11,121 nt of DNA, taken from NCBI GenBank assembly GCA_037443365.1, contig JBBIOM010000030.1, positions 11,903 through 23,023 on the forward strand, read 5' to 3'. The notes beneath the pieces were generated by a model that was not told the DNA's origin, ran no database searches, and was given only the letters and a program-made list of their open reading frames with translations. A program made the position numbers and the translations under genes. This DNA comes from Armatimonadota bacterium (GTDB lineage: Bacteria; Sysuimicrobiota; Sysuimicrobiia; Sysuimicrobiales; Humicultoraceae). This document shows positions 1,724-6,281 of this stretch, piece after piece (position 1 is the first letter of the stretch; the number at the start of each line of letters is the position of its first letter).

Positions 1724-2377
1724 CTACGACCCCGCGCCGTGCTCCCGGGCGTGCCAGGCCTGCCAGAGCGCCTCGATCTGCCTTCGGGTCGCGTTCGGGG
1801 ATCCGCTGTTGTCCACGACCCAGGTGGCCAGGGGGATCTTCTCGCGCAAGGGACGCTGCGCGCGCAGACGCTGTTGGGCCGCCTCCAGAGGGATGCCGTC
1901 GCGCGCCATCAGGCGGGCGATCTGCGTGGCTTCGTCCGCGAAGACGACGACCACGCCGTCTGGGGCGAAGGGCTCGGGCTGCGCCACGTCCAGCAGGAGC
2001 GGTGCTTCCACCACGATTAAAGCCCCGGGACGCGCCGCGCGCGCAGTCTTGATCTCTTCCTCGATGCGAGCGCGGATGCGAGGATGCGTGATCGCGTTCA
2101 ACCGGGCGCGGGCGCCGGGGTCGGCGAAGACGAGCGCACCCAGCGCTTTGCGGTCCAGGACACCACCCTCTGTGACGACCGATGCGCCAAACGCCCGTAC
2201 GATCTCGCGCAGGGCCTCGGTCCCTGGCGCGACCACCTCGCGCGCGACCGCGTCCGCGTCAATCACGTGCGCGCCCATCTCGCGGAGAAACCGCGCCACC
2301 AGGCTCTTGCCGCTTGCGATCCCGCCGGTGAGGCCGATCACCTTCGCGGCGCCGCGGTCCGCACCCCGGTCGTTCAC
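1724..2377 (-). CDS. coaE: Dephospho-CoA kinase
   Basis: VIGLTGGIASGKS P-loop, IDAD, LDRKALGALVF, LNAITHP, RLMARDG, DNSGS motifs; GTG start overlaps the polA stop (GTGA, 2377-2374); usual position downstream of polA. Confidence 0.96.
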   Translation of the reverse strand: MNDRGADRGAAKVIGLTGGIASGKSLVARFLREMGAHVIDADAVAREVVAPGTEALREIVRAFGASVVTEGGVLDRKALGALVFADPGARARLNAITHPRIRARIEEEIKTARAARPGALIVVEAPLLLDVAQPEPFAPDGVVVVFADEATQIARLMARDGIPLEAAQQRLRAQRPLREKIPLATWVVDNSGSPNATRRQIEALWQAWHAREHGAGS

Positions 2378-5022
2378 TGCGCCGCTCCCCCCTCGACCGC
2401 GCGCATCTCGGCCCAGTTGGGGCCGGCCTTGGCCTCGGCGACCAGCGGCACCGACAGCGGATACGCTCGCTCCATCACGGCGCGGACCGCCCCGGCGACC
2501 TGCGCGGTGACCGGCTTCGGCACCTCGAAGAGCAGCTCATCGTGAATCTGCAGCGTCATGCGCGTACCGGGGAATGCCGGCAGCACCTCCCGCGCGATCT
2601 CCAGCATCGCCAGCTTGATGATGTCGGCGCTGGACCCCTGGATCGGCGTGTTGATCGCGACGCGCTCGGCGGCCTCACGCACCGCGCGGTTGCGGCTCTG
2701 CAGGTCGGGGAGGTACCGCCGGCGGTTCAGCACCGTGGTGACGAAGCCGTCCCGGCGCGCCTCCTCCACGACGCGCAGCATGTACTCGCGCACCTTTGGA
2801 AAGCGCGCGTAGTAGAGCCCGATGAAGCCGCGCGCCTCCTCTCTTGAGATGCCGAGCTGGCCTGCGAGGCCGTGCTCGCTCATGCCGTAGGCGACGCCGA
2901 ACACGATCGCCTTGGCGCGGCGCCTGAGTTCAGGGGTCACCGCGCCGCGCGCAACGCCGAATACCTCGGCCGCGGTGATCGCGTGGATGTCCTCGCCCGC
3001 CTCGAACGCTTCCACCAGGCCCGGGTCGCGCGTGTAGTGCGCCAGCACGCGCAGGTCTATCTGCGAGTAGTCCACGCCGAGAAGCAGCGATCCCGGCGGC
3101 GCAACGACCGCGCGGCGTATCCTGCGGCCCTCCTCTGTGCGGATCGGCAGGTTCTGCAGATTCGGCTGCTCGGTAATCACGCGGCCCGTGGCGGCCAGCG
3201 TCTGGTTAAACGTGGTGTGCACGCGCCCGGTCGCTGGATCGGCCAGCCGCGGCAGCACGTCCACATAGGTTGACTTCAGCTTGCTCAGCTCGCGGTGCGC
3301 CAGGATCTTCGCTGCGACCTCGTGCCGGGGCGCCAGGCTCTCCAGCACCTCGGCGTCGGTCGAGTAGCCGGTCTTCGTCCGCCTCAGCGGGGGAAGTTGG
3401 AGTTTCTCGAACAGCACGTGCGCGAGCTGCTTGGGCGATCCCAGGTTGAACTCGGTGCCGGCTTGGGCGTAGATGTCCGCGGCCAGCGCCTCAATCCGGT
3501 CGGCCAGCTCGTCCCCGAGCGCGGCCAGGTACGGTAGATCGGCGGCAACGCCGTCCCTCTCCATTGCCGCAAGCACCGCGGCCAGCGGCACCTCGACGTC
3601 GCGGAACAGCCCCTCCACACCGTGCTCGCGCATGCGCGCCTCGAGCACCGGGCGAAGCCCCAGGAGCAGGGCGGCGGCCTGCGCGGTCGAAGCGCCGGCC
3701 CTGGGATCGAGTACCAGGTCATCGGCGGCATCGGGGTAGGGCTCGTGCGTTTCGGCGCCCAGGAACTCGCGCGCCGCAGCGGCCAGCCCGTGCGTGCGCC
3801 GTCCTGGGTTGATCAGGTACGACGCGATCGCCACGTCGAAGTCAAACCCGGCCGGCGTGACACCCGACCTGCCGAGCGTAAGCAGGTCGGCCTTCACGTC
3901 GGCGCTCACCTTGCGCACCGCAGGGTCCTCAAGGATGTCGCGGACCTGCTCCGGGATGCCCTGGTCCGTCCCGACCCACGCCGCCTTCCCTGATGCGGCG
4001 ATCCCCACCGCGCGCAGCCGCGCCGCGAGCGGGTGTCCGGAGCCCCGCAGGAACGCCGCGCCGATCTCACCGGCCGCACGCGCCCACGCCGCGATCTCGT
4101 CAGGGGTCGCCGACGCGACCGTGCTGGCCGGCCGCGCGGCTTCGGCTGGCGCGCGCCGCCTGCTCAGCCGGTCCAGGAACCCGCGGAACTCCAGGTCCGC
4201 AAACAGCGCCCTCAGGCGGTCGTCCTTTGGCTCTATGCGGCGCAGGGCTTCCAGATCAACCTCCACGGGCGCGTCGGCTGAGATCGTCGCGAGTTGCTTC
4301 GAGAGCACCACCTGTTCTCGCGCCGCTTCCAGGGCGGCGCGCACCTTGGGCGGCGCCTCGCCCAGCCGGTCGAGCAGCGCCTCGACGCAACCGAACTGCC
4401 GGACCAGGGCGCCCGCGGTCTTGTCGCCGATGCCGGGCACGCCCGGGATGTTGTCGCTTGCGTCGCCCCGAAGGCTCTTGTAGTCCGGAATCCGTCCCGG
4501 GTCAAACCCGAAGCGCTCGCGCACCCTGTCCTCGTTGTAGATCACGGCCTCGGAGGCCCCGCGCCCTGTGACCATCACGCGCGTGCGCGCGTTCACGAGC
4601 TGCAGGGTGTCCAGGTCGCCGCTGACCACAAGCACCTCGAGGCCCTCGGCCTGGGCGACGCGTGCGACGGTGGCGATCACGTCCTCGGCCTCGAAGCCCT
4701 CGGCCTCCAGGACCGGGATTCCAAGCACCCCCAGCACCTGCTTACCGAGGGCGACCTGCGGCCGCAGGTCGTCGGGCATCGCCTCGCGGTGGGCCTTGTA
4801 CTCCGCGAACCGTTCGTGCCGGAAGGTCGGGCCCGGCCTATCGAAGGCCGCGGCGATGTAGTCCGGGTCTTCCTCTTCGAGGACCTTGAGGACCATCGCG
4901 GTCAGGCCGTAGACCGCGTTGGTGGGCCGGCCGTCCCGGGTCGTCAGGTAGGGCAGGGCGAAGAAGGCGCGGTACATCAGGCCGTTGCTGTCCAGCAGCA
5001 CGAGCTTGCCCTGCGCCCGCAT
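2374..5022 (-). CDS. polA: DNA polymerase I (5'-3' flap nuclease, degenerate 3'-5' exonuclease, family A polymerase domain)
   Basis: LVLLDSNGLMYRAFFAL, TNAVYG, YKAHR, SGDLD, GDASDNIPGVPGIGDKTA; FNLGSPKQL, TKTGYSTDAEVL, KLKSTY, PNLQNLP, DYSQIDLR, RRRAKAIVFGVAYG, NTPIQGSSADIIK, IHDEL. Start moved from the track's 5163 (which overlaps the upstream gene) to the ATG at 5022 (alternative ATG 5025), following GGGAGG at 5034-5029. Confidence 0.97.
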   Translation of the reverse strand: MRAQGKLVLLDSNGLMYRAFFALPYLTTRDGRPTNAVYGLTAMVLKVLEEEDPDYIAAAFDRPGPTFRHERFAEYKAHREAMPDDLRPQVALGKQVLGVLGIPVLEAEGFEAEDVIATVARVAQAEGLEVLVVSGDLDTLQLVNARTRVMVTGRGASEAVIYNEDRVRERFGFDPGRIPDYKSLRGDASDNIPGVPGIGDKTAGALVRQFGCVEALLDRLGEAPPKVRAALEAAREQVVLSKQLATISADAPVEVDLEALRRIEPKDDRLRALFADLEFRGFLDRLSRRRAPAEAARPASTVASATPDEIAAWARAAGEIGAAFLRGSGHPLAARLRAVGIAASGKAAWVGTDQGIPEQVRDILEDPAVRKVSADVKADLLTLGRSGVTPAGFDFDVAIASYLINPGRRTHGLAAAAREFLGAETHEPYPDAADDLVLDPRAGASTAQAAALLLGLRPVLEARMREHGVEGLFRDVEVPLAAVLAAMERDGVAADLPYLAALGDELADRIEALAADIYAQAGTEFNLGSPKQLAHVLFEKLQLPPLRRTKTGYSTDAEVLESLAPRHEVAAKILAHRELSKLKSTYVDVLPRLADPATGRVHTTFNQTLAATGRVITEQPNLQNLPIRTEEGRRIRRAVVAPPGSLLLGVDYSQIDLRVLAHYTRDPGLVEAFEAGEDIHAITAAEVFGVARGAVTPELRRRAKAIVFGVAYGMSEHGLAGQLGISREEARGFIGLYYARFPKVREYMLRVVEEARRDGFVTTVLNRRRYLPDLQSRNRAVREAAERVAINTPIQGSSADIIKLAMLEIAREVLPAFPGTRMTLQIHDELLFEVPKPVTAQVAGAVRAVMERAYPLSVPLVAEAKAGPNWAEMRAVEGGAAQ

Positions 5023-5057
5023 CATCACCCTCCCGCAAACGCCGCCGCGCGGCGACC

Positions 5058-6257
5058 TCAGGGACCGCTGCTGGCCCTGCGAAAGCCCCGGCGCAGCAAC
5101 CACCACAGGACCGCGGCGAGGGCGGCCACCGGAAGCAGCGCGGCCGCGAGCGCCACCAGCCACTCGGCGGCGCCCAGCATCTGACGGACGGTGTTCAGAA
5201 GCGCGGCCTTGACGCGCTCAAGCGTCCGGGTGAAGTCCCAGAACCCGCCCTGCGACTTCTTCGGCTTCTCCCGCAGTTCCGCCTGCACCGTCGCCAGTTC
5301 CACCTTGTTGGCGAGGAAGCGCAGCCGGCCGGTCAGGCGCTCTATCTCGCCGCGCACCCGGGCCACCTCTCCCTCGATGGCCAGCAGGTCGGGGATCTTC
5401 GTGGCGCGGTCGAACAGGGCCAGCAGCCGCGCCTCCTGGCGCGCCAGGTTGCGCACGCGCGCCTCCAGGTCAACGAACTCCTCGGTCACGTCCTGACCGC
5501 TGATCCGGCGCTGCTGCACGAGACCCAGTTTCTCGATCTGCGCCACGACGTCGCCGAAGCGCCTCGCCGGCACGCGCAGGATGAAGGTGCCGCGCGGCGA
5601 GCCGTCCTCGTCCGAGAAGGAGGAGTCGGCGACGAACCCGCCAGCGCCTTCGGCGATGACGGACAGACGGCTGGCCGCATCGTTCAACCGCTCGACCTCG
5701 AGCGATATCTCGGCTGTCCGGATGACCCGGCGCGCGAAGGCGGCCTCATCGGGCGCCCCGGCAGGAGGAACCGCCTGCGCCGCGCTGCGCGGGCTCTCAC
5801 CGATCTTCGAGGCATCCGTCGTGACGCGAAGCGCCCTGAACCGGTAGGCGCCAAGCCGCTCCGTGACCTCGGGCATGCCCGCGTCACGCACCAGGTTGAC
5901 GGCGAAGACCCCAACGAGAACGACGGCCGCGGCCGCGGTTGCGGCCTTCCATGACCACCGGACCCGCGGCCAGGGGACGCTGCTCCACGGCAGGCCGGCG
6001 CGGAGGCGCGCCCACGGTGAGCGTGCGGCCGCCTGGGGCGCCTGCGCGATCCGGCGGCGCACCTCGTCGGCGAATCCATCGGGTGCCTGCATCGGTTCCA
6101 CCTCCTGCATCAGGGCAACGGTTGCGCGCAGCCCGGCCAGTTCCGCCCGGCAGGTAGAGCAACCCTCGAGGTGCGCCTCCACCCGGGCGGTCTCATGATC
6201 CGGCAGCGCGCCGTCTATGAGCGCGCCGAGCCGCATGCGTGCTTCCTCGTGTGTCAT
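5058..6257 (-). CDS. Membrane-anchored zinc-binding anti-sigma factor (zf-HC2/ZAS) with DUF4349-like domain
   Basis: N-terminal H-x25-HxxxCxxC (MTHEEAR...AHLEGCSTC); TM segment AATAAAAVVLVGVFAVNLV; RRVIRTAEISLEV...GGFV...LRVP...GQDVTEEFVDLEARVRNL...RVRGEIERL resembles DUF4349; second hydrophobic segment at the C-terminus; directly downstream of the ECF sigma gene. ATG 6257 preferred (AAGGTGG upstream); ATG 6278 is an alternative. Confidence 0.85.
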   Translation of the reverse strand: MTHEEARMRLGALIDGALPDHETARVEAHLEGCSTCRAELAGLRATVALMQEVEPMQAPDGFADEVRRRIAQAPQAAARSPWARLRAGLPWSSVPWPRVRWSWKAATAAAAVVLVGVFAVNLVRDAGMPEVTERLGAYRFRALRVTTDASKIGESPRSAAQAVPPAGAPDEAAFARRVIRTAEISLEVERLNDAASRLSVIAEGAGGFVADSSFSDEDGSPRGTFILRVPARRFGDVVAQIEKLGLVQQRRISGQDVTEEFVDLEARVRNLARQEARLLALFDRATKIPDLLAIEGEVARVRGEIERLTGRLRFLANKVELATVQAELREKPKKSQGGFWDFTRTLERVKAALLNTVRQMLGAAEWLVALAAALLPVAALAAVLWWLLRRGFRRASSGP

Positions 6258-6281
6258 CGGTCCGCCACCTTCTCCCATCCC

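What the first reader, a model, noticed from the sequence alone, without database searches (positions are those of the whole stretch)
3049..3072. PolA with a natural steric-gate substitution: motif A reads DYSQIDLR instead of DYSQIELR
Seen: codons GAC TAC TCG CAG ATA GAC CTG CGC, with Asp (3055-3057) at the position of the near-invariant Glu. Established: this Glu (E. coli Pol I E710, Taq E615) is the family-A steric gate that excludes the 2'-OH of rNTPs; as I recall, engineered Taq E615D variants show relaxed rNTP discrimination. Inference: this could be a natural Pol I with increased ribonucleotide incorporation or altered sugar selectivity/fidelity (repair patching under low dNTP, or biotechnological use). 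The catalytic Asp of motifs A and C is intact, so it does not look like a dead enzyme.
Basis: partly seen in the sequence, partly recalled or inferred. Interest (0 to 1): 0.8.

Follow-up and report, generated by a model that had tools for sequence, protein, structure and literature searches.

The report
Pol I with Asp steric gate
The organism's only DNA polymerase I really has aspartate where textbooks place an invariant glutamate that keeps RNA building blocks out, but this is an inherited trait shared by whole bacterial groups, and its effect is untested.

Summary
Window 3072..3049 (minus strand) encodes DYSQIDLR, and the GAC at 3057..3055 is Asp at the family-A steric-gate position (Taq E615). 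It is not an error or a private mutation. The gene is the only family-A polymerase in a 97.7%-complete genome. A D-type motif pattern was found in 50 of 56 genomes of two families of its small phylum, with both GAC and GAT codons. All nine translated PolA genes from four other families have Glu.

It is also not rare. The D-type pattern is the norm in samples of Desulfobulbales (143/151) and Elusimicrobiota (92/101). A tree of 286 polymerase domains needs 15-16 D/E changes.

Every other pocket residue checked is intact. I found no measurement of Glu-to-Asp on sugar selection, only review statements that Taq tolerates it. The relaxed-rNTP reading is therefore possible but unsupported.

Two extra leads: a Val unique to this clade replaces the O-helix Asn next to the sugar-sensing Phe, and a helix-Q Ala-to-Ser change accompanies Asp in 9 of 14 lineages. 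The scan had noted Asp gates before, in phage polymerases.

The parts
2374..5022 (-). polA coding sequence (882 aa from the ATG at 5022..5020; the open frame runs on to a GTG at 5163)
   Evidence: ORF list and translation; the 882-aa form is the gene call in the protein collection; start and stop codons checked
4225..5007 (-). 5'-nuclease (FEN) domain
   Evidence: PF02739 (182.6 bits) and PF01367 (99.3 bits), residues 53-313 of P0001
3763..4008 (-). vestigial 3'-5' exonuclease-like domain
   Evidence: PF22619 (40.9 bits), residues 386-467; PF01612 gave no match at E <= 0.001. Loss of proofreading is inferred, not shown
2407..3531 (-). family-A polymerase domain
   Evidence: PF00476 at 501.5 bits, residues 545-919; best solved relatives are 6vde and Taq 1bgx
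3049..3072 (-). motif A, DYSQIDLR, with the catalytic Asp at 3072..3070
3055..3057 (-). steric-gate codon GAC = Asp (P0001 D703, P0002 D656; pairs with Taq E615)
   Evidence: conserved in relatives
2887..2925 (-). motif B / O-helix, RRRAKAIVFGVAY (R, K, F and Y intact)
2902..2904 (-). O-helix Val (P0001 V754) where Taq has N666, next to the sugar-sensing Phe; specific to this clade
   Evidence: 28/28 rows of the clade have Val; Asn in 143/146 E-type and 111/140 D-type rows; no Val outside the clade among 286 rows
2623..2640 (-). helix-Q segment QGSSAD; the second Ser (2631..2629, P0001 S845) pairs with Taq A757
   Evidence: association with the Asp gate
2530..2550 (-). motif C, QIHDELL, with the catalytic Asp at 2541..2539
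1724..2377 (-). coaE (dephospho-CoA kinase); its GTG start overlaps the polA stop by 4 bases
   Evidence: PF01121 at 182.6 bits; overlap seen

Best explanation
This is the organism's single, functional DNA polymerase I. It has a Taq-like build: a 5' nuclease, a vestigial exonuclease-like domain and a polymerase domain, and it lies in a housekeeping polA-coaE arrangement. The Asp at the steric gate arose once in the ancestor of two families of this small phylum (its NCBI-named relatives are labelled Armatimonadota or CSP1-3) and has been kept since. The same Glu-to-Asp change was fixed independently in about fifteen other bacterial lineages. Inferred mechanism: Asp keeps the carboxylate that the Glu uses to hydrogen-bond the O-helix Tyr and the helix-Q Gln, so the enzyme remains a DNA polymerase that selects dNTPs. 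The side chain is one methylene shorter, so packing against C2' of the incoming sugar is probably looser. In this clade that may be offset by two nearby changes, Ser for the helix-Q Ala and Val for the O-helix Asn. I expect sugar discrimination to be kept to within about an order of magnitude, possibly mildly relaxed. Shown: identity, single copy, clade fixation, recurrence, and an otherwise intact pocket. Inferred: all statements about geometry and kinetics.
For: - Identity and copy number: domain architecture; one PF00476 match in a 97.7%-complete genome.
- Relatives' loci: 26 of 29 encode DYSQIDLR and 3 encode Q-I-E-L-R.
- Phylum-wide D-type pattern: family f1 30/33 plus the window's own genome, f2 19/22; f4 0/23, f5 0/12, and f3, f6, f7 0/1 each. 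One f1 miss (G019) has the Asp and fails only on a later His.
- Glu was confirmed by translation in 9 loci of f3, f4, f5 and f7.
- Codon use: by my eye count of the 52 matches, 35 are GAC and 17 GAT, mixed within genera, with no GAA or GAG. The third base therefore turns over while Asp is kept.
- All 119 nearest non-self protein clusters carry DYSQIDLR.
- On the tree, all 28 rows of this phylum's D-type form one D-only clade.
Desulfobulbales are 143/151 D and 2 E. Elusimicrobiota are 92/101 D-pattern. The tree needs 15 D/E changes, or 16 with the gate column removed.
- Among the best 150 representatives at 50% identity, 9 are D, 138 E and 3 unmatched.
- Pocket: the equivalents of R668, D705, Y706, Q708, L711, R712, R754, K758, F762, Y766, N845, Q849, H881 and D882 are invariant in 140/140 D-type rows (Klenow numbers recalled).
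- Five D-type genomes of other lineages also each have a single PF00476 match.
- Literature passages: Taq E615 tolerates Asp. The gate carboxylate H-bonds the O-helix Tyr, and in Pol theta also the motif-6 Gln and a TGR Arg. The charge matters, since E710Q is a slow mutator.
Against: - No kinetic data on Glu-to-Asp were found, so 'discrimination largely kept' is inference.
- The steric-gate model assigns the clash to the aliphatic carbons of the Glu (T7 E480, passage), and Asp lacks one of these, so a real loss of discrimination is plausible.
- Stable fixation of each state in large clades, despite a one-step mutational path between them, fits either state being selected, not only neutrality.
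- The Ser association is not significant on well-supported independent pairs (median p 0.125), and the column was picked post hoc out of 385.
- Desulfobulbales keep Ala (27/27), so no compensation is obligatory.
- I could not measure distances in any structure, so the proposed contacts of S845 and V754 are untested.
- The states of five pattern misses (G045, G049, G050, G063, G066) are unknown.
Confidence: 0.6

Rival explanations
1. Adaptive relaxation of the sugar gate. The shorter Asp opens room for a 2'-OH, so this Pol I inserts ribonucleotides markedly more often. That could be useful for patch repair when dNTP pools are low, with RNase HII removing the rNMPs later.
For: The gate works through the aliphatic carbons of the Glu packing on the sugar (passage), and Asp removes one methylene. 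The state is stably kept in large clades. RNase HII is present in the genome. The enzyme seems to lack proofreading. Many D-type lineages carry names of anaerobic groups; this is an impression from record titles and was not tested.
Against: No measurement was found. Known rNTP-accepting mutants remove the side chain (E615G, E710A, E2335G) rather than shorten it. The Asp gate occurs both with a full 3'-5' exonuclease domain (L048, L083) and with a vestigial one (L077, L039, L102), and in very different lineages, so no common lifestyle link is shown. RNase HII matched in all 14 control genomes, so its presence says nothing. The genome has a ribonucleotide reductase and a Y-family polymerase, an ordinary repertoire.
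Confidence: 0.22
2. Changed base-substitution fidelity or template use rather than sugar choice. The gate residue also shapes the nascent base-pair pocket, so Asp could tune error spectrum, fingers closing, or reverse-transcriptase-like bypass of embedded rNMPs.
For: E710A and E710Q of Klenow fragment are mutators that fail to close the fingers efficiently (passages in PMC3715850; PMC10520511). Pol I is described as a reverse transcriptase over embedded ribonucleotides in the abstract listing of PMC13646829.
Against: Asp keeps the charge that E710Q lacks. Nothing in the sequences bears on fidelity. It was not testable here.
Confidence: 0.12
3. Sequencing or assembly error, or a private mutation of this one genome.
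For: None beyond the fact that GAC and GAG differ by one base.
Against: The same residue is found in 50 genomes of two families with two synonymous codons and in 119 of 119 nearest non-self protein clusters. A contig of a second sample has 0 differences over the codon.
Confidence: 0.01

Closest known systems
Taq DNA polymerase I (1bgx/1taq) and the 908-aa DNA polymerase I of PDB 6vde (recalled as mycobacterial Pol1)
   Same: Full-length alignment at E 1e-205 (6vde) and 1.4e-179 (Taq). Same 5'-nuclease plus vestigial-exonuclease plus polymerase build, and the same motifs A, B and C.
   Different: Both have Glu at the gate (DYSQIELR, DYSQIEMR). Taq has Asn and Ala where the window has Val (V754) and Ser (S845).
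Engineered steric-gate mutants: Klenow E710A/E710Q, Taq E615G sets (SFR3, AA40, SFM19), Pol theta E2335G
   Same: The change is at the same residue.
   Different: Those mutants remove the side chain or its charge. They gain rNTP or 2'-modified NTP use, or become mutators. Here the carboxylate is kept and only one methylene is lost, and no activity data exist.
Taq motif-A random library (Patel and Loeb 2000, seen only as cited in reviews)
   Same: Shows that Asp at position 615 is compatible with polymerase activity (passages).
   Different: That is a laboratory mutant in a Glu-adapted background. Here Asp is the wild type of whole clades. The primary paper was not readable.
D-type Pol I of Desulfobulbales, Elusimicrobiota, Dehalococcoidia and other groups
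   Same: Identical DYSQIDLR motif, canonical O-helix K, F and Y, and a single polA per genome in the 5 genomes checked.
   Different: Independent origins on the PolA tree. They keep the O-helix Asn. Desulfobulbales keep the helix-Q Ala. Some carry a full 3'-5' exonuclease domain.
Asp-gate / His-762 phage PolA clade noted earlier in this scan (e1-5928761, e1-5921487)
   Same: Asp at the family-A steric gate as a fixed clade signature.
   Different: Those are phage or mobile-element replicases with His at the 762 position. Here it is a chromosomal Pol I with Phe. Their claims were not checked here.

Membership tests
Bacterial DNA polymerase I (family A, PolA) | DNA_pol_A polymerase domain above Pfam's cut-off | tested here: met
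   PF00476 at 501.5 bits against a cut-off of 34.3, covering profile positions 3-381 of 381
Bacterial DNA polymerase I (family A, PolA) | Catalytic carboxylates of motif A (D of DYSQ) and motif C (HDE) | tested here: met
   D at 3072..3070 and HDE at 2544..2536; invariant in 286 aligned rows except the last Glu
Bacterial DNA polymerase I (family A, PolA) | O-helix motif B with R, K, F/Y and Y | tested here: met
   RRRAKAIVFGVAY at 2925..2887
Bacterial DNA polymerase I (family A, PolA) | N-terminal 5'-3' exonuclease / FEN domain | tested here: met
   PF02739 and PF01367
Bacterial DNA polymerase I (family A, PolA) | Glu at the steric gate (called universally conserved in PMC3715850) | tested here: not met
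   Asp. The same holds for whole clades that are otherwise canonical PolA, so this residue is better treated as typical of the family than as defining it
Bacterial DNA polymerase I (family A, PolA) | Active 3'-5' proofreading domain (Klenow type) | tested here: inconclusive
   Only PF22619 matched; PF01612 gave no match at E <= 0.001. This resembles Taq-type enzymes. The exonuclease motif residues were not aligned one by one
Sugar-promiscuous family-A polymerases (steric-gate-open mutants) | Gate side chain removed (Gly or Ala) | tested here: not met
   Asp keeps the carboxylate
Sugar-promiscuous family-A polymerases (steric-gate-open mutants) | Measured rNTP incorporation well above wild type | not testable with these tools
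   Needs enzyme kinetics

The most novel reading that the evidence does not exclude
Asp-gate Pol I enzymes are a convergently evolved functional class. In some fifteen bacterial lineages, including this phylum's two families, all sampled Elusimicrobiota and nearly all Desulfobulbales, shortening the gate residue (often together with a helix-Q Ala-to-Ser change) lowers 2'-OH discrimination by 10-fold or more. Gap filling and Okazaki maturation in these organisms would then routinely leave ribonucleotide patches, and RNase HII-dependent repair would carry a correspondingly larger load.
Probability: 0.15. Interest if true: 0.7.

Novelty: new variant of a known kind. Interest (0 to 1): 0.35.

Why it matters
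The steric-gate Glu is described as universally conserved in family-A polymerases (PMC3715850). This work shows a natural, stably inherited Asp alternative in the sole Pol I of whole bacterial groups, some with cultured members such as Desulfopila aestuarii DSM 18488 (L048). That gives polymerase enzymologists ready-made natural pairs, D-type and E-type sister enzymes, for asking how much of sugar discrimination depends on side-chain length rather than charge. It also gives them candidate second-shell partners to test. For this window alone the finding is ordinary: the residue is simply the state of its clade. If the Asp does loosen the gate, it would bear on ribonucleotide load in genomes and could supply new enzyme scaffolds. 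If it does not, the textbook statement only needs a small correction.

Tried and rejected
- Literature on the exact mutants: a whole-word search for E710D, E615D, E658D and E480D gave 28 papers. None of the 25 listed concerns a polymerase by its title, and most concern PRKD1 E710D.
- A search for the motif letters DYSQIDLR and two shorter forms gave 0 papers.
- A search on steric gate, family A, aspartate and natural variation listed nothing, by title or abstract start, about a natural Asp gate in bacterial Pol I.
- The primary papers (PNAS 1998, PNAS 2000, JBC 2000) are not held.
- Supplementary files were not opened. Table S2 of PMC3715850 may hold kinetic values for E710 mutants.
- Coupling of the gate Asp with the O-helix Asn-to-Val change: rejected as a general rule, because the other D-type lineages keep NFG.
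- Four other columns enriched in D clades (P0002 residues 572, 687, 748, 813) gave weaker results than the Ser column; medians were p 0.25-1 on independent pairs.
- Link to loss of proofreading: rejected, because both architectures occur.
- The 'phylum' search returned the same 94 genomes as the 'order' search and added nothing.
- Solved structures: all 60 listed hits are entries named DNA polymerase I, Taq polymerase, Klenow fragment or polymerase theta. The 3 alignments I saw have Glu, and I did not inspect the rest.
- Small shares of the stretch in lake, sediment and groundwater runs (X4-X12) were not used for any habitat claim. X11 gave only short pieces of 4 or more differences.
- No structure was predicted, because the tools return no coordinates and side-chain contacts could not be measured.
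Full report
**1. The observation**

The minus strand of window 3072..3049 reads GAC TAC TCG CAG ATA GAC CTG CGC, which is DYSQIDLR. The second Asp codon is at 3057..3055.

The motif lies in an open frame at 2374..5163 (-). The ATG at 5022 gives the 882-aa protein that the public protein collection also calls.

Pfam finds four domains:
- a 5'-nuclease domain, PF02739 plus PF01367;
- the ribonuclease-H-like vestigial domain PF22619;
- DNA_pol_A at 501.5 bits;
- no match to the 3'-5' exonuclease model PF01612 at E <= 0.001.

The best solved relatives are a 908-aa DNA polymerase I (6vde, E 1e-205) and Taq polymerase (E 1.4e-179). In the printed alignments the window's Asp pairs with the Glu of DYSQIEMR and DYSQIELR. 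Counting along the Taq chain coordinates, that Glu is E615.

**2. Not an error, and no second polymerase**

- The genome (2.2 Mb, 69 contigs, 97.7% complete) has a single PF00476 match.
- A contig of the possible source run covers 2900-3200 with no difference. A contig from another sample of the same study covers 3036-3200 with no difference. No variant is listed at the codon. These are contigs, not raw reads.
- Of 29 PolA loci from relatives, 26 encode DYSQIDLR. The other three encode DYNQIELR or DYDQIELR.

**3. Distribution in its own phylum**

The genome's GTDB phylum holds only 94 species genomes in one order. The NCBI names of the nearest proteins are Armatimonadota and 'Armatimonadetes bacterium CSP1-3'.

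A DNA pattern for D-[YF]-x-Q-h-D-h-R-x-x-A-H gave these counts:

| Family | Genomes with the D-type pattern |
|---|---|
| f1 | 30 of 33, plus the window's own genome |
| f2 | 19 of 22 |
| f4 | 0 of 23 |
| f5 | 0 of 12 |
| f3, f6, f7 | 0 of 1 each |

- One f1 miss (G019) has the Asp and fails only because Gln replaces the later His.
- The other five misses (G045, G049, G050, G063, G066) are unresolved.
- Translation of nine loci from f3, f4, f5 and f7 shows Glu in all nine.
- By my eye count, the 52 pattern matches use GAC 35 times and GAT 17 times, mixed within genera, and never GAA or GAG. The third base turns over while Asp is kept, which speaks for constraint.
- All 119 nearest non-self protein clusters carry DYSQIDLR.
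- Two unpublished genomes (G015, G024) are among the f1 counts. The conclusion does not depend on them.

**4. Distribution elsewhere**

- All 120 translate to genuine PolA motif A: DYSQIDLR 120 times, counting two copies in one locus, and DYSQVDLR once.
- Record titles name Elusimicrobiota, Dehalococcoidia and other Chloroflexota, Desulfobulbaceae including Desulfopila aestuarii DSM 18488 and Candidatus Electrothrix, several Patescibacteria, Syntrophomonas, Omnitrophota, Binataceae, Planctomycetota and Armatimonadota.
- In an evenly drawn sample of the order around Desulfopila, 145 of 151 genomes matched a pattern that allows either residue. By eye, 143 have Asp and 2 have Glu (G109, G113). 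One genome has an extra chance match.
- In a sample of the phylum around an Elusimicrobium genome, 92 of 101 genomes matched the Asp pattern.
- Five D-type genomes from these groups each have one PF00476 match.
- Among the best 150 representatives at 50% identity, 9 have Asp, 138 have Glu and 3 did not match my motif expression.
- A FastTree of 286 polymerase domains (140 D, 146 E) needs at least 15 D/E changes, or 16 with the gate column removed. It shows 16 D-only clades. All 28 rows of the window's phylum form one of them. The D rows were collected by their Asp, so their share in this tree is not a frequency.

**5. The rest of the pocket**

Using the alignment for Taq numbers, and recalled Klenow equivalents, these positions are invariant in all 140 D-type rows: the TGR Arg, the motif A D, Y, Q, L and R, the O-helix R, K, F and Y, the helix-Q N and Q, and the motif C H and D.

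Within the phylum, eight columns separate D-type from E-type rows without overlap. Two of them lie in the nucleotide pocket region.

- **The residue before the sugar-sensing Phe.** It is Val in 28 of 28 rows of this clade (window 2904..2902). It is Asn in 143 of 146 E-type rows and 111 of 140 D-type rows. Val is seen nowhere else among the 286 rows. It is therefore a lineage-specific oddity and not a partner of the Asp in general.
- **The residue three positions after the helix-Q Gln** (window 2631..2629, Taq A757).
  - It is Ser or Thr in 94 of 140 D-type rows, against Ser in 10 of 146 E-type rows.
  - Of 14 D clades with a near E-type sister, 9 have Ser/Thr and 5 keep Ala. No sister has Ser with Glu.
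  - The conservative test on well-supported independent pairs gives 4.5 pairs going the same way, 0.1 the other way and 4.4 unchanged, with median p 0.125.
  - The column was chosen post hoc out of 385, so this is a lead and not a result.
  - Desulfobulbales keep Ala in 27 of 27 rows.

**6. What is known about the residue**

All of the following are passages I read, not whole papers.
- The Glu is called universally conserved. It hydrogen-bonds the O-helix Tyr and forms part of the pocket for the nascent base pair. E710A and E710Q are mutators, and E710Q is slow (PMC3715850).
[quoted passage not shown] In Pol theta the carboxylate also bonds the motif-6 Gln and a TGR Arg (PMC6158600).
- Enzymes that accept rNTPs or 2'-modified NTPs carry Gly at the gate.
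- The primary papers were not held.
- Searches for the mutant names and for the motif letters found no paper on a natural Asp gate in Pol I.

**7. Reading**

The gene is an ordinary, single-copy Pol I in a housekeeping setting. The coaE start overlaps the polA stop. An ECF sigma and anti-sigma pair, an aminotransferase, panE, panB and an M20 peptidase lie upstream. The genome also has RNase HII, a ribonucleotide reductase and a Y-family polymerase.

The Asp is the inherited state of the clade. It is one instance of a substitution that bacteria have fixed many times. It occurs both with a full proofreading domain and with a vestigial one.

I rank the explanations as follows:
- 0.6: an active DNA polymerase whose sugar selection is largely kept and perhaps mildly loosened, possibly helped in this clade by the Ser and Val changes.
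- 0.22: an adaptive, clearly relaxed gate.
- 0.12: an effect on fidelity or template use.
- 0.01: error or private mutation.

None of the functional readings can be settled without kinetics.

**8. Verdict**

- Its refutation test (relatives showing Glu) fails to refute it.
- Its premise of rarity is wrong.
- Its functional inference is untested.

The general point may be of modest interest to polymerase specialists: a residue called universal has a natural, clade-fixed alternative in whole orders and a phylum, with a possible coupled Ser. The window itself is unremarkable within its lineage. The scan had already noted Asp gates on other DNA, in phage-type PolA clades. I did not check those notes.

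Noticed in passing
window 2902-2904 (-): The O-helix residue just before the sugar-sensing Phe is Val (AKAIVFG) in all 28 rows of this clade. It is Asn in 254 of the other 258 rows, and Val occurs nowhere else among the 286 aligned PolA rows.
   Followed up: partly
window 2629-2631 (-): The helix-Q residue pairing with Taq A757 is Ser. Ser/Thr accompanies the Asp gate in 9 of 14 independent D clades, against Ser in 7% of E-type rows. This is not significant on conservative pairs (median p 0.125), and the column was chosen post hoc.
   Followed up: partly
window 3163-3189 (-): After the TGR motif, the window's genus and most f1 relatives read RVITEQPNLQN, where Taq has RLSSSDPNLQN and several other families of the phylum have RLSS. 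Both D-type and E-type rows of the phylum show either form, so it is not tied to the gate residue.
   Followed up: no
window 2374-2377: The GTG start of coaE overlaps the TGA stop of polA by four bases, which suggests coupled translation of polA and coaE.
   Followed up: no
window 5023-5163 (-): The polA frame stays open for 47 codons upstream of the likely ATG start. This stretch is an Arg/Gly-rich run starting at a GTG that overlaps the end of the upstream DUF4349/zf-HC2 gene (5058-6278). It is probably untranslated, since the public gene call starts at the ATG.
   Followed up: no
loci L032-L151 (motif C column): Thirteen of 140 D-type rows, against 1 of 146 E-type rows, have Asp instead of Glu as the last residue of the motif C H-D-E triad. 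I did not determine which clade they belong to.
   Followed up: no
286-row alignment, Phe-762 column: All 140 D-type rows have Phe at the ddNTP-sensing position, while 14 of 146 E-type rows have Tyr. This was not corrected for relatedness.
   Followed up: no
G109 and G113 (Desulfobulbales sample): Two genomes in an otherwise Asp-type order carry Glu codons (GAA, GAG) at the gate. I did not examine whether these are reversals, basal lineages or transfers.
   Followed up: no
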